From: Ginglymostoma cirratum
Taxonomy: Eukaryota
Length of the DNA stretch: 64,000 bases
Assembly: GCA_024137785.1 (NCBI GenBank)
Contig: JAHRHZ010000020.1
Coordinates: forward strand, 51,476,839-51,540,838
Reading direction: 5' to 3'
The notes beneath the pieces were generated by a model that made no database searches, was not told the DNA's origin, and saw only the letters and a program-made list of their open reading frames with translations. This document shows positions 3,073 to 61,227 of the stretch, piece after piece; within the stretch, counting starts at the first letter, position 1, and each line of letters begins with the position of its first letter. The position numbers and the translations under genes are program-made.

Positions 3073-5736
3073 CTCCAATGATGCACGCTGCACTTGTAAA
3101 TCGGAAGTCGCCTCTCTCCCCAATGAAAACCGTTTGTGTTTCTGCACAACAAGATGTCAGTATCGAGCCACTCGGATTTTACTGCTGGTGAAAGGGACTC
3201 TGAAGTCAAGCCACTGACCTCCTGCTATGTTATCGAGCGAGTGGTAATGTCAAGTGCTGCTGCACCTGCTTTCAAACAGACTGTCAGGTAAAAAAAAAAC
3301 CATAATGCGCCCCGACTGGCCCTGTCTTTGGTTACCTTACCTTCTGTGCAGCATTAAGAATCGTGTTATTGGATCTGACTCTTCCTTGCGACTAACTGCT
3401 ATCACATTGCTGAGCCAGCTGTCTGAGGGACACACAGGTCTGGCTGATGCTGACCCTACCCATTGTTCTGGGAAAGACCAAGTCCCAACATACTGCACTG
3501 TCAGGGAGAGAGGAGTCAGCACCAGCTGCTACACCATTGTACAGGTACTTTAAAGATTACGGCACAATACTGCATTAGGTTGGCATTGAGAATTCTGCTC
3601 TCTAAATGCTGTCTCATAACAATATTCACACAGGCCTATTGTAAACCACAGGAGACAGCTGTTTGATTCTGCAGTCTAAATGAAATTAATCTTATGTCAC
3701 TGATGAAACTGTCATTAACTAGACTTTTGATTGAAATGAACTGTGATATTGTTCAGACCTACTGCGAGAAACAGCCTGGTGGGTCCAACTCCATTTCATT
3801 TACTTCCTGCTCTATTGATTCTTATTTTGTTCTTTTTTTTCAAGACTTCAAAATGAAAAAAAAAGGCAGAACTGGTGAGCCTGTTTCTCAGAGAAGGGCA
3901 TATTGGTGTCCTCTCCATTTCTTTCTGCACTGGTCATGTTTGCTTTCGCACTGACAGCTGGGATGACTTCCCTCTCGGCTGCTGAGCAAGACTCCACTCT
4001 GTGACAAGATGGCACGGCTGGTCAATTCTAGCTCATAAAGCCCATCACATTCGGAGTCAAGCCTCTCGCACTTTTCTTCTTCACTGCCATCAGCCATTTA
4101 CACAGTGGTCAGGTGATACATACATGGTTGTGCCAACTCAGAAGTGTCAACAAAGGAAATGAAACAGAGGAACATTATTCTGTTAGGATGGTCACAGCAC
4201 GTTAACTCGATGACTACCAAATCTGTGAGGTGATTCCCGTTTAAAGCAGTAGCATTGGCTCACCACTGAATCTTGAGATACGGCACTGCTTTCGTTCTTT
4301 CAGAGCTGACAGGATTTGAAGGACTAAACTGGCCTCCTTTTATGCTGGATCATTCTAGTCTACGGTTCTGTCACTGTCACAACATATTGCTGCAGACATT
4401 ACAGTCAGCGATGCCAATCTCTGAATCTGGTTTTGGTCAGCCAATTATCTGACATTCACCGCATTTGTGAGAATCCTAATAGACCTACAATTTTGTTTTG
4501 CTCGATGGACTACTTAAATCCAGAGACAATGGGTCTAGGTTCTTGGTAGTGCCAAGACTAAGAATACTTCAAGTGAGTAAAGGATATATGCAGCTTAAGT
4601 GTCTAAAACAATGCAGCCTGCCAGCTAGGTAATTGTTCCATTGCTACTTTGTTCCATTTGTGAAGAATCTTAGCACAAGTTCCACCTTCCTCAGTGGCAT
4701 CTCAGCCTCTGTCCCATTCCATGACTAAATGTGACTGGCGAATGCTGCCTGGGTTTACCGTTGAGGTACTGTACTTGATGGCTGTTGTCTCTTGCTCCCA
4801 TTGTCACTGTAGCTGAGAGTTGTCTGAATATCAAAGACAACTCAGCCAGCATTCCTGCTTTCAGTGACCCTAATTAGTTGCATCAGCCTAGCTGTCGTGA
4901 TGATCTTCACAACAACAGCAGCCATACTTGCCAGGATTATGAATGAGAAAATGAAGGTTACGATGAATGGCACGTTGGGTGAAATGTCACAGCTAATGGT
5001 CCTGGTAGGAGCCGGCCCCTTTCAGAAGATGCCTAAGGGGACATCAACTCTGTTCTTGGTTCACTGACCCTTACAGTTGTTATGTTGGGTTGTATAAAAA
5101 CTTAATTGATACTCAGCGACTCCTCATCAAGTGAAGACAAGAGCAGCTTTAGTAATTGGCTTTTTTATTATAAATCAACAGTTGTATCATTCAGGAGTGA
5201 TGGAGGTGTCAGTTTGCGCAGGACAGAGAACAAGAAATAGAAGATGGCTACAGAACCGAGCACCCTTTGGGAAATGCAAATCAAACGTAAAGCACCATTT
5301 TAAAAATAGGAAAATTAGAAATAAAAACTGGAAATATTCGGGGATACAGAAGAGACCAGCTAGTAAAGACAAAAAATAAAGCCAAATATTTGGCTCTTAG
5401 ATGTTCTTGCTCCCATAAGGTATTTACCCCCAAATGCTCATGTCCTTCAGCTTCTGAAGGGCAGTTGTGCTTCACTGCAAACCTAATTCAATGAGAGATG
5501 TGCAGGACTTGCAACTTCCAATCCAGTTCTCGTCTGAAGCAAAGCAGGCTTCTTTTTGTAAGCTCAAGGCAGGCCAGCAATGTATGCAAAAGGTAAAGGC
5601 TTTCCACACAAACTAACTCAACGGGCGCACGCCACAAAATGGAAACAACAACTGCTTTGTAACATATTCAATTTATCAGATAGGAAAACGTCTTGTTTAC
5701 TCTTGCACGAAAGCAAAGTCAATCTCTATTAATGTG

Positions 5737-58089: not shown

Positions 58090-59040
58090 ATGGGGTAGGA
58101 TGATGCTTGAAAGGCTATGAAGATGGAGATTTGTGCACTATCCCCAGTGCCTCAACATTGCCACTGCACACTCCAGTGAAGCCTCTCCATGTGTTCGGTG
58201 CCTTCCTGAATAGACCTATTCCACTTTGATCGGTCGCAAGCCATAGCTCCCAGAGATTAGCAGTGATGTTTACTTTCTTCGGGGAGGCTAGGAGGTCGGC
58301 CCTCAAACGTTGGCCTTCTAAGAAGCTCCTGGCACGAATGATTTTTGGGTGGAACAGGTGCTTGCGGAATCTGCAATCAGGCCAGGTCTTGCCCGGTGGA
58401 GCTGGCTTTGAGTGACTAGAGAGGATCAGGATCTCAAGTGGAAGGCTAAGCTCATGGTTTACCATGCTGCAGTGTGCCCCTTGCTCCATTGTACTCAGGA
58501 GATCGGGATAACCTACAGTGGGTACCTCAAAGCTCTGGAGAAGTTATCAGTGGTACCTTCTCAAGATCCAGTGAAAGCAAGGTAGTTAAATAGAAGTATT
58601 TTCTCTCAAGCCAGCATGCATATTTATGACAGTGATACTGACAGCCTCATCAATTCCAATCACTTTTCTGACCCAAGTCATGACTAATGGCATTTGGTTC
58701 AACTGGTAACAGCCATTTTGACATATTTCATGGTGTCCCTCAATAGGAAGGATCAACGAGACAGTAGGCAGCATGGAAACTGGCCAGGCCACTCCATGGT
58801 TCAGACGGTCCAACGCAGCCCTGATGTAGAAAGGCCAGGAAGGATACTGGGACTCGACTGCAGACTCTCGGATGACCAGCCAGCAGCAACGTTGCCACCC
58901 TGTCTGAACGTGGCCAAAATCACAACAAAGGTGGAGGGAACTTCCCATGCCATGCACGCCCGATCTCCCGTTTACCACAGTCAGCTAGCAAGAGCAGGAA
59001 TTGGGATCAGCCAACGAGCAAAGATGCCATTGAACTGACA
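58090..59040 (+). mobile_element. possible highly decayed LINE
   Basis: Faint resemblance only (ILGLDCRLS versus the ILGVTIDxKLxW LINE motif); weak support. Confidence 0.25.
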
Positions 59041-59084
59041 AAGGTCATAAACATCAACACTGGTGAGGTTTTCACAAGTGAATA

Positions 59085-59430
59085 TGCCTTCCCTCTTCTT
59101 CCCTATTTTCTGAAAGCTGCTCTAGTCCCTATAGGCCTCCAGTACAATGGCGCTTCTCTAATTCTGCCCCCTCTATCTCGGGATATTAATCTCATCACGT
59201 TTGGCAGCCTTGTTTTCAGTTGCCGAGGCCTCAAGATCTGAAATTCTCTCCTGCATCTCTCCACTTCATTCCCTCTCGCGCCATGGAGCTTGCCAGTTGG
59301 AGGAAACTTTTCGTTACCTGTCCTAATACCTCATATGGTTTGGTCCAAATGTTGTTCTTGTTTCATCTAATCCCCAACGAGAAGCACATAGAATGCTTTA
59401 CTGTTGAAAGGGTGCTGCAGAAACACAATG
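59085..59430 (+). mobile_element. decayed L2 LINE 3' end
   Basis: GCCTTGTTTTCAGTTGCCGAGGCCTCAAGATCTGAAATTCTCTC and tail TTTACTGTTGAAAGGGTGCT, parallel to 30095-30310. Confidence 0.55.
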
Positions 59431-59835
59431 CAATATTTTTGTCATGTACTGAGATACCTTTTGTATCTAATGCCCATTAAAAATAGGGTTTGATGAAGTG
59501 GTCACATGCCTACAAAATGAATCCTGATGCTCATAAAATAAAAAGTGTGTTCATGAGTTAATAGCAAAACTCCTGAATGAAGCCGCCCATCCATTTCAAA
59601 CAGATTAAGTTCACAGATGTTGATTCCGCACCATGTCTTACTTGCACGCAGTGTGACTTCAGCTTACAAAGATCCAAAGATTTCCTCGTCTACGACAGGT
59701 TGTCACTTGTCATCAAGGTCGCAAAGACGTGCTTTTTTTTTTAGGAACAAAAATCAAGTGCAACCCAATCCAAAGGACTTATACCACAGTCACACTTTGT
59801 TGAAGTTGGTTGGCTCGCCGAACTGGTTTGTTGTT

Positions 59836-59879
59836 CTGCAGACGTTTCGTTACCGTGCTTGGTAACATCCTCAGTGCAG
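59836..59879 (-). ncRNA. minimal type I hammerhead ribozyme (PLE-associated), apparently intact
   Basis: Minus strand CUGCA-CUGAGGA-U-GUUACC-aagcac-GGUAAC-GAAAC-GUC-UGCAG: perfect 5-bp stem I, perfect 6-bp stem II, full core, GUC cleavage triplet. Confidence 0.85.
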
Positions 59880-60038
59880 CCTCTGATGAAGCGTCGGTGT
59901 GGTTTCCCGCCTGGTTTTTTAAACTCTGGGGTCCATTGCAATGGATTGCCTCACTTCCGGGTTTCCTTCGAAGTGGAATGTATATGGGGTCGAGTTCAAT
60001 GTGTTCATTAATAGCAAGCTTCGTGGATTGCCATGCTC

Positions 60039-60293
60039 CATGTTGATAAGGAGAACCACAACTTCGACTGGAACAACCCCCAGATCCTGGGACAGGCTAG
60101 GCAGAGACAAGCACGAGAATTCCTGGAAGCATGGCACTCCACGAAGCATGCTATTAATAAACACATTGAACTCGACCCCATATACATTCCACTACGGAGG
60201 AAACCCGAAAGTGAGGCAATCCATCGCAATGGACCCCAGAGTTTAAAAACCAGGCAGGAAAACACACCGACACTTCATCAGAGGCTGCACTGA
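60039..60293 (+). pseudogene. C-terminal fragment of a PLE GIY-YIG endonuclease
   Basis: HVDKENHNFDWNNPQILGQARQRQAREFLEAWHSTKHAINKHIELDPIY matches the PLE endonuclease tail pattern H...H.FDW....IL.......R..LEAW......IN....L..IY. Confidence 0.85.
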
Positions 60294-60328
60294 GGATGTT
60301 ACCAAGCACGGTAATGAAACGTCTGCGG
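60285..60328 (+). ncRNA. minimal type I hammerhead ribozyme (PLE-associated), core intact
   Basis: CUGCA-CUGAGGA-U-GUUACC-aagcac-GGUAAU-GAAAC-GUC-UGCGG; both changes relative to the left copy give G-U wobbles. Confidence 0.8.
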
Positions 60329-61189
60329 AACAACAAACCAGCTCGACAAGCCAACCAACCTCAACACCCACAACTCGAGCTACAAATCTACTCCAAAACC
60401 TTAGTCACACTTTGTGGTGTGTCCTTGGCCTTTCTCACTGACTTGAACTCTTGACACGGGAGCAAACAGACAGATGCACTGTTCAAGGTCCTCCTGTTTT
60501 CCTGAAGATGCGGAAACGTGGCCCTACAGAGCCTTAATTAACAGGTACCTGTTTTGTTAGAGATCCGTGTCTGAATTTAATGAGCAGAAACTATGGCCTG
60601 ACTGTATAAATTTTGTATTAATCTATAATAGTATTAATTTTCGATGTTTTGTGCCACCAATTATTTTGAAGCATCAGTTTGTGTAATAAAATTAATTGGC
60701 TTCGGCTGCCCTCAGATAAGCCGCACCACAAGTTTTATTTATTTTGAGCATGCTAAAACTTGGCAGTTAAATGGAAACCATCCAAGAACAGAAATTATAT
60801 GAGAGGGATTTTAATTACAGCTTAGCATCTGCTTGAATGAGAAAATTGCAGGATATTAAGGACTGCAATATCCCCTAACCTCCTCCACCCCCTCTCTCCC
60901 CTCCCCCTGTCATTTGTGGAAAGAGATTTAAACTCAATTTGTCAGACCAAAATTAAATATGAATTAGATCGATCCCAATTACAACAGAAATAAAGTCACA
61001 CCCAGACGAAGGCCAACGGACTGCTGAAAGCCAAGAGTATAGTTCCCGACTGAGAAAACATCATAAACTTGACGTGTACTGCCGCAAACTCTTCAAAACC
61101 CAGATGAATGTAATTATTACTCCCACCTAGCAGAACTGGGACAGTTAGTTAACATAACTGCCACTGCTAAATATCTTCAGGCTACTTTC

Positions 61190-61227
61190 ATTTGCATCGG
61201 TAGCGCACGCTTGTAGCATATTTGCAT
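61190..61227 (+). promoter_or_regulatory. pair of perfect POU octamer motifs
   Basis: ATTTGCAT at 61190-61197 and 61220-61227 in repeat-free sequence; function unproven. Confidence 0.35.

What the first reader, a model, noticed from the sequence alone, without database searches (positions are those of the whole stretch)
59788..60415. Foldback Penelope element carrying two intact-looking hammerhead ribozymes, one per strand
Seen: a perfect 13-bp TSD, ~243-bp inverted arms (16 substitutions and 2 indels by hand), an 83-bp spacer, a GIY-YIG tail, and in each arm a complete CUGANGA/stem II/GAAAC-GUC motif with a 5-bp stem I. The only two arm differences inside the motif keep pairing as G-U wobbles. 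Known: PLE pLTRs encode minimal hammerheads with a vestigial stem III that are thought to cleave as dimers, and inverted pLTRs are typical of PLE insertions. Inference: a transcript from either strand carries one sense ribozyme but can also fold into a ~240-bp hairpin that buries it. Self-cleavage would then compete with dsRNA formation (ADAR/Dicer substrate) inside a probable intron.
Basis: partly seen in the sequence, partly recalled or inferred. Interest (0 to 1): 0.7.

Follow-up and report, generated by a model that had tools for sequence, protein, structure and literature searches.

The report
Penelope foldback fossil with local twin
This 600-base hairpin is an old, broken insertion of a common Penelope-type jumping gene in a known mirror-image layout, its two ribozyme motifs predicted to be locked inside the hairpin, but it shares its exact central joint with a second copy 1.85 million bases away, which likely records local swapping or re-copying between neighbouring copies.

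Summary
In detail: 13-bp TSD, inverted arms, a minimal hammerhead in each arm, a PLE endonuclease tail. The interpretation mostly is not. The layout is the family's normal insertion product (72 foldbacks in 144 loci; 68 of 72 with one tailed and one tail-less end) and is described in print. Both "wobble" differences are CpG transitions common in other copies. The motif decays as fast as its flanks (3.1% vs 2.8%), and the active fold costs 70-75 kcal/mol inside the hairpin. The insertion appears shared with related organisms, so it is old. Transcription and intron status are not established. The family's ends point to two primings on a staggered cut (inferred). Unexpected: a twin 1.85 Mb away has the same seam but its own TSD (0 of 4 control seams have a twin), and copies within 3 Mb share rare alleles about threefold more than chance (p<0.001). 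That indicates local conversion or local re-copying. The scan has found such foldbacks many times before on other DNA, and once a seam-sharing pair.

The parts
59788..59800 (+). Left target-site duplication (13 bp); its last 3 nt (TGT) also match the element's tail-less end
   Evidence: family TSD mode 13
59801..60036 (-). Inverted, 5'-truncated, tail-less copy of the element's 3' end (left arm)
   Evidence: 11 of 239 nt differ from the family majority
59836..59879 (-). Minimal type I hammerhead, all stems Watson-Crick; predicted cut 3' of 59841
60037..60040 (.). Central seam (TCCA microhomology) joining the two 5' ends; identical in the twin at G000:C20:53389298-53389321
60041..60123 (+). 83-nt unpaired spacer: the part of the right arm that reaches further 5' than the left arm
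60039..60293 (+). C-terminal end of the PLE ORF (GIY-YIG endonuclease region); stop codon TGA at 60291-60293 is U4-G5-A6 of the hammerhead core
   Evidence: 83% identity to the L075 ORF; Pfam alone finds nothing for this piece
60124..60366 (+). Right arm (pLTR region) that pairs with the left arm
   Evidence: 7 of 243 nt differ from the family majority
60285..60328 (+). Minimal type I hammerhead with G10.1-U11.1 from a CpG transition; predicted cut 3' of 60323; ATG at 60296-60298 is the inferred start of the next tandem ORF
60367..60402 (+). 36-nt one-sided PLE tail
   Evidence: end positions cluster about 36-41 nt apart in the family
60403..60415 (+). Right target-site duplication (13 bp); its first 2 nt (AG) also match the element's continuation seen in tandem copies

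Best explanation
It is an old, non-coding insertion of two 5'-truncated ends of an abundant Penelope-like retrotransposon, set head to head, most likely made when both strands of a 13-nt staggered cut each primed reverse transcription, and its two hammerheads are predicted to be inactive passengers locked in the hairpin. Shown: the anatomy, the family, the one-tail rule, the neutral decay of the motif, the twin with the same seam. Inferred: the endonuclease nicks both strands 13 nt apart; one 3' end primes at the distal start site (about +108 from the ATG, giving the tail) and the other at the proximal site (about +70, no tail), each with 1-3 nt of pairing; the two cDNAs are joined at a short microhomology. 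Also inferred: the centre of this copy was later, or at the birth of the twin, exchanged with a neighbouring copy by homology-directed repair or template switching, rather than the whole unit being copied.
For: Family: 4,803 first-look candidates, 442 exact and 1,234 core-intact motifs. RT PF00078 E 1.4e-12 plus a weak GIY-YIG match in the same ORF. Layout: 72 foldbacks in 144 loci, 68 of 72 with one tailed and one tail-less end (binomial p 2.5e-17); TSD mode 13. End microhomology 1.4 and 2.0 nt against 0.7 in shuffles (27 clean TSDs, p<=0.001). Either arm can be the longer (17 vs 23). Arms of one locus share more non-CpG variants than shuffled partners (72 vs 12.6). Anolis Poseidon protein cuts and extends both strands and starts at two internal sites that bound the tail (PMC11167929). 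Dead motif. Old: contigs of organisms B and C, with flanks 4-7% diverged, run into the element at both junctions. Centre exchange: the twin's arms share six alleles that ours lack, while the alleles shared with ours sit mainly at the seam; the twin's tailed arm shares six rare alleles with a third copy 47 kb from it.
Against: The double-priming step has not been observed. End microhomology could reflect an endonuclease preference for cutting after T. The 17:23 split could be blurred by later inversions between arms. Shared arm variants could come from later arm-to-arm conversion, and this locus itself has 0 shared derived variants. [quoted passage not shown] Only one of the five junction contigs meets the tool's 31-nt bridging rule. 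One rare allele shared with the twin (60360T, 0 of 224 other arms) lies at the far end of the left arm, which fits whole-arm copying better than a centre-only exchange. GIY-YIG scores below Pfam's cut-off (11.4 vs 22.6 bits).
Confidence: 0.75

Rival explanations
1. One reading: a host-used switch in which self-cleavage competes with dsRNA formation in an intron.
For: Both cores are complete. A hairpin would form if the locus is read through. The insertion has been kept across related organisms. PMC11167929 shows that the element's protein can assist cleavage.
Against: No excess conservation. Active fold 70-75 kcal/mol above the hairpin and stem II pairing probability below 1e-17. The sense motif always comes after its antisense copy. 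Monomers are inactive in PMC4209133. Double-intact copies are common (11 of 68).
Confidence: 0.04
2. The foldback was transcribed and served as a template for a new nearby insertion: one cDNA copied this copy's left arm and seam, the other copied a neighbour's tailed arm, and they annealed to give the twin with a new TSD.
For: Same seam, length and ends with a different 12-bp TSD and unrelated flanks. 60360T is shared at the far end. The twin's tailed arm matches the copy 47 kb away. The twin looks younger (arms 10/239 apart, CpG o/e 0.95 vs 0.70). Rare-allele sharing falls with distance family-wide. PLEs are known to copy unspliced RNA (PMC3846280, PMC8557442 passages).
Against: Retrotransposons have no established preference for nearby targets (general knowledge). 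Only 1 of this left arm's 7 rare alleles is in the twin's matching arm. Ectopic gene conversion explains locality without a new mechanism. Many shared alleles are A/T-to-G/C, as expected from biased conversion.
Confidence: 0.25
3. The inverted arm arose by self-priming: one cDNA folded back and copied itself (related to the proposal in PMC3846280).
For: It gives the same head-to-head geometry and shared arm variants. 9 of 68 pairs start within 15 nt of each other (two or more of these flank assembly gaps).
Against: It predicts that the tailed arm is always the longer, but the tail-less arm is longer in 23 of 40 simple junctions. The tail-less end is sharply fixed and has its own microhomology to the target. 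There is no palindrome at this seam.
Confidence: 0.12
4. The identical seam of the twin is a chance recurrence at a microhomology hot spot.
For: The seam has a 4-nt microhomology. Two other pairs among 46 seams fall within a few bases of each other.
Against: 0 of 4 control seams have any genome-wide twin. The only twin lies 1.85 Mb away in a 4.36-Gb genome and shares rare alleles.
Confidence: 0.07

Closest known systems
EN+ PLE insertions with inverted 5'-truncated pLTR, one-sided 30-40-bp tail and TSD (Pen2a_Av, PMC3846280; Fig. 2 legend of PMC8557442; passages read)
   Same: Head-to-head inverted arms, tail on one end only, TSD, pLTR that includes the first codons of the ORF.
   Different: Here the insertion has no full ORF, TSDs are longer (mode 13 vs 8-10 bp in the passages seen), and the seam is not palindromic.
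Minimal type I hammerheads of metazoan PLE pLTRs (PMC4209133; parts 1-2 of 4 read)
   Same: No loop III, palindromic 15.2-16.2, bulged base before stem II, 5-bp stem I. That paper already reports dual motifs 100-700 bp apart on opposite strands.
   Different: The + motif here has lost G10.1-C11.1. Stem II is 6 bp. Sharks are not named in the parts read.
Poseidon of Anolis carolinensis (PAc; PMC11167929; parts 1-2 of 4 read)
   Same: ORF start at the base of stem II, cut site about 26-28 nt downstream, two internal RT start sites that bound the tail, both DNA strands cut and extended.
   Different: This family's genomic ends show 1-3 nt of microhomology and a strict one-site-per-end pairing, neither stated in the parts read. 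No sequence comparison with PAc was run.
L1 twin priming (search listing only, e.g. PMC2837659; mechanism recalled)
   Same: Both strands of the target prime cDNA; inversion plus TSD.
   Different: L1's second priming copies an upstream, non-overlapping part of the RNA. Here both primings copy the same 3' region, which gives a foldback.
Non-LTR retrozymes (bioRxiv 10.64898/2026.07.22.740005; part 1 of 5 and passages)
   Same: PLE-derived, type I hammerhead.
   Different: Retrozymes are same-strand tandem repeats. This is an inverted pair and cannot form their dimer.

Membership tests
EN+ Penelope-like element | Single ORF with RT followed by C-terminal GIY-YIG endonuclease | tested here: met
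   Family copy L075: RVT_1 E 1.4e-12; GIY-YIG E 0.41, below cut-off but at the expected place with NVIY..YIG. Window peptide 83% identical to its end.
EN+ Penelope-like element | Partial tandems that form pLTRs | tested here: met
   Six fetched copies have a pLTR running into the ORF start.
EN+ Penelope-like element | Inverted 5'-truncated copy and one-sided 30-40-bp tail | tested here: met
   This locus, and 68 of 72 foldbacks.
Penelope/Poseidon clade | [quoted passage not shown] | tested here: inconclusive
   None seen by eye in L075; no profile test.
Penelope/Poseidon clade | RT phylogeny groups with Penelope/Poseidon references | not tested
   No named reference proteins were at hand; nearest hits are unnamed shark and flatworm proteins.
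Minimal type I hammerhead (PMC4209133) | Core CUGANGA...GAAA-UH with palindromic 15.2-16.2 and no loop III | tested here: met
   Both arms.
Minimal type I hammerhead (PMC4209133) | G10.1-C11.1 pair | tested here: inconclusive
   Met on the - motif; G-U on the + motif. No measured effect of G-U found.
Minimal type I hammerhead (PMC4209133) | Self-cleavage as dimer or with protein help | not testable with these tools
   Needs an in vitro assay; folding predicts burial in the full transcript.
Rfam hammerhead families | Covariance-model hit | tested here: not met
   No hammerhead hit at E<=5 in 59000-61200.
Non-LTR retrozyme | At least two same-strand tandem units with complete hammerheads | tested here: not met
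   The two motifs are on opposite strands.
Non-autonomous foldback element that spreads as a unit | Many dispersed copies with the same internal structure and own TSDs | tested here: not met
   One twin only, with arms of mixed lineage.

The most novel reading that the evidence does not exclude
Penelope-like elements integrate by a two-ended reaction with one fixed RT start site per DNA strand, and they copy RNA from nearby loci into nearby targets. This foldback was transcribed in the germ line and donated its arm and seam to a chimeric new insertion 1.85 Mb away. Local hopping by a retrotransposon would explain why neighbouring copies are each other's closest relatives.
Probability: 0.25. 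Interest if true: 0.65.

Novelty: new member of a known kind. Interest (0 to 1): 0.36.

Why it matters
As a ribozyme switch it does not matter: the layout and the opposed motifs are in print and abundant in this genome. Its value is as a record of an unsolved transposition cycle; PMC8557442 names the origin of tandem and inverted PLE structures as open. The one-tail-per-insertion rule, end microhomologies and free arm lengths give predictions that the existing in vitro Poseidon system can test directly. The seam twin and the kinship of neighbouring copies show either unusually active local conversion between foldbacks or local retrotransposition. Either would affect how PLE ages and subfamilies are inferred.

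Tried and rejected
Rfam scan: no hammerhead hit. Pfam on the window peptide alone: nothing. PDB sequence search with the family ORF: 0 hits. Host gene: an ORF listing and a rough splice-site scan with recalled frequencies over the window and 30 kb downstream gave no convincing exon, so intron status is open. Expression: no RNA holder listed; one run guessed to be RNA covers the flanks patchily at depth 5-7, which shows nothing about transcription. Age of the twin in relatives: inconclusive because its flanks are themselves repeats. The 400-nt gaps in five foldbacks are runs of N, not a sub-family; they were dropped. A third seam-like match (L160) is not a PLE. A-to-I editing as the source of the twin's A>G changes was considered and judged too weak: 3 of its 8 rare tailed-arm changes not shared with the third copy, and all three create CpG. 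A direct whole-unit copy between this locus and the twin was rejected because six alleles in both twin arms are absent from both arms here. Papers on the effect of G10.1-U11.1: no data found; that it lowers activity is recalled, not shown.

Full report
1. Observation. The TSD (59788-59800, 60403-60415), the arms (59798-60040 vs 60124-60366; 16 substitutions, 2 gaps), the 83-nt spacer and both motifs are as described. The right arm carries a 36-nt tail. One gap belongs to the central TCCA seam. Rfam finds no hammerhead; PMC4209133 needed its own descriptor for these minimal motifs.

2. Identity. The right arm has 4,803 first-look candidates in the genome; the 40 scored are 93-95% identical, apart from the window itself. 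Longer copies encode an RT followed by a GIY-YIG-like domain, and the window peptide is 83% identical to that ORF's end. Six copies show a pLTR running into the ORF start. They place the likely ATG at A9-U-G10.1 of the hammerhead (60296), as in Anolis Poseidon (PMC11167929), and show the sequence that follows the tail. Nearest proteins are from sharks (59-66%) and flatworms. The clade is probably Penelope/Poseidon; no tree was built.

3. How ordinary. The 34-nt motif has 442 exact matches and the looser core 1,234, with 0 for reversed controls. Counted by eye, 5 and 8 close opposite-strand pairs lie among the first 100 places listed. Of 155 loci fetched, 7 were dropped as duplicates or neighbouring DNA and 144 had usable ends. 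Of these, 72 are foldbacks and 68 of the 72 have one tailed and one tail-less end; 55 of the 68 have a TSD of at least 8 nt, mode 13. The loci were picked by similarity, by the exact motif or by RT, so they are not a random sample. The layout is described in PMC3846280 and PMC8557442 (passages), and opposed dual motifs in PMC4209133.

4. The ribozymes. Six of the 16 arm differences lie in CpG columns (12% of columns), including both differences in the motif. In arms not picked by the motif, 25 of 85 and 18 of 87 carry the same changes. Non-CpG divergence is 93/3037 inside and 368/13092 outside the motif (p=0.47). The motif is intact in 30 of 83 such arms. Both are intact in 11 of 68 foldbacks, and in 3 of 20 not picked by the motif, this locus included; 13% is expected from independent survival. 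Alone, each motif forms stems I and II, but in the full transcript the active fold costs 74.5 (+) and 70.5 (-) kcal/mol. Because the arms face outward, the antisense copy is always made first. PMC4209133 saw no cleavage by a monomer and low cleavage by dimers. PMC11167929 saw cleavage only with protein and found it dispensable for insertion. A competition between cleavage and dsRNA is therefore unlikely. A hairpin RNA is possible if the locus is transcribed, which is not shown.

5. Age. Contigs from organisms B and C, with 4-7% flank divergence, enter the element at both junctions and none spans an empty site (one of five meets the 31-nt rule, and the joint table was cut). Arm-to-arm divergence (6.7%) fits neutral decay over that time.

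6. How it was made (inferred). Ends cluster at two positions about 36-41 nt apart. In 27 clean TSDs the overlap with the template is 1.4 nt at tailed and 2.0 nt at tail-less ends, against 0.7 in shuffles; here 2 and 3 nt. TSDs mostly begin with A (18 of 27) and end with T (15 of 27), so cut preference is an alternative reading. Among 45 simple junctions the tailed arm is longer in 17, the tail-less in 23 and equal in 5, against simple cDNA fold-back. Arms of one locus share 72 non-CpG variants against 12.6 in shuffles (52 pairs, five N-gapped loci dropped), although this locus shares none. With the in vitro finding that Poseidon cuts and extends both strands from two start sites, two primings on a staggered cut is the best model.

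7. The twin. L124/L157, 1.85 Mb away on the same contig, aligns over 607 nt at 92% with the same seam and ends, a different 12-bp TSD and unrelated flanks. The seam occurs only at these two places, and 0 of 4 control seams have a twin at up to 2 mismatches (that setting would miss some diverged twins). The twin is not a plain copy: six alleles are in both of its arms and in neither arm here. It shares 60041T, 60042G, 60137A (in the opposite arm) and 60360T with this locus. Its best genome-wide match among 40 scored is a third foldback 47 kb from it, whose tailed arm shares six rare alleles. With these three loci removed, 45 pairs of loci within 3 Mb share 21 rare alleles against 6.5 expected (0 of 1000 permutations reach it; 147 loci). 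The mean falls from about 0.7 below 1 Mb to 0.30, 0.18 and 0.15 at larger distances, and 0.14 for unlinked pairs. Regional mutation bias could add to this signal but cannot make the seam. Local ectopic conversion is the simpler cause; two-template local retro-copying is the bolder one. Direction is unresolved.

8. Literature. Read: PMC4209133 and PMC11167929 (parts 1-2 of 4 each); bioRxiv 2026.07.22.740005 (part 1 of 5 and passages); passages of PMC8557442, PMC3846280, PMC2377424, PMC2837043 and PMC544870. No supplements were opened; the supplementary figures of PMC11167929 on start sites may bear on section 6. The listings showed no title or abstract start on seam-sharing, local kinship of PLE copies or one-start-site-per-strand integration; the library lacks most subscription papers. 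Earlier notes of this scan (unchecked) describe many such foldbacks, the two-sided copying idea and one seam-sharing pair.

9. Verdict. A real feature and an ordinary member of a known class; the ribozyme-switch reading is not supported. The seam twin and the kinship of neighbours lift it modestly. Interest 0.36.

Noticed in passing
window 60291-60298: The hammerhead core holds both the stop codon of the upstream ORF (U4-G5-A6) and, 2 nt later, the inferred start codon of the next tandem ORF (UGA-GG-AUG), which suggests coupled termination and restart and constrains the motif independently of catalysis.
   Followed up: partly
L075 ORF: After shark proteins, the nearest named relatives in the best 120 hits are trematode and cestode PLEs (about 41-54% identity), with no named bony-fish hit; possible host-parasite transfer or simply database make-up.
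   Followed up: no
L128/L129 (C21, 0.5 Mb apart) and L145/L095 (C24, 0.2 Mb apart): Neighbouring foldbacks share rare alleles crosswise: the tailed arm of one matches the tail-less arm of the other. Unexplained; may reflect inversion between arms.
   Followed up: partly
L124/L157 twin, G000:C20:53388947-53389551: CpG o/e 0.95 against 0.22-0.25 in its flanks, and six CpG-creating changes; little CpG decay for its divergence.
   Followed up: partly
L033, L044, L116, L125, L145: Five of 72 foldbacks have a 400-N run at the centre, so some seams are unresolved in this assembly and near-identical arms there may be artefacts.
   Followed up: yes
C12:32055220/32055350, C14:62524192/62524388: Both arms carry the same stem II-breaking change, which fits templates with imperfect hammerheads still being copied, or arm-to-arm conversion.
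   Followed up: no
L030:829-984, L056, L111: Short internal segments that begin in the pLTR, run into the ORF start and then jump to another part of the element; possible template jumps.
   Followed up: no
window 3341-3497 (-) and 58981-59062 (+): High-scoring candidates of a rough splice-site scan; no evidence that either is a real exon.
   Followed up: no
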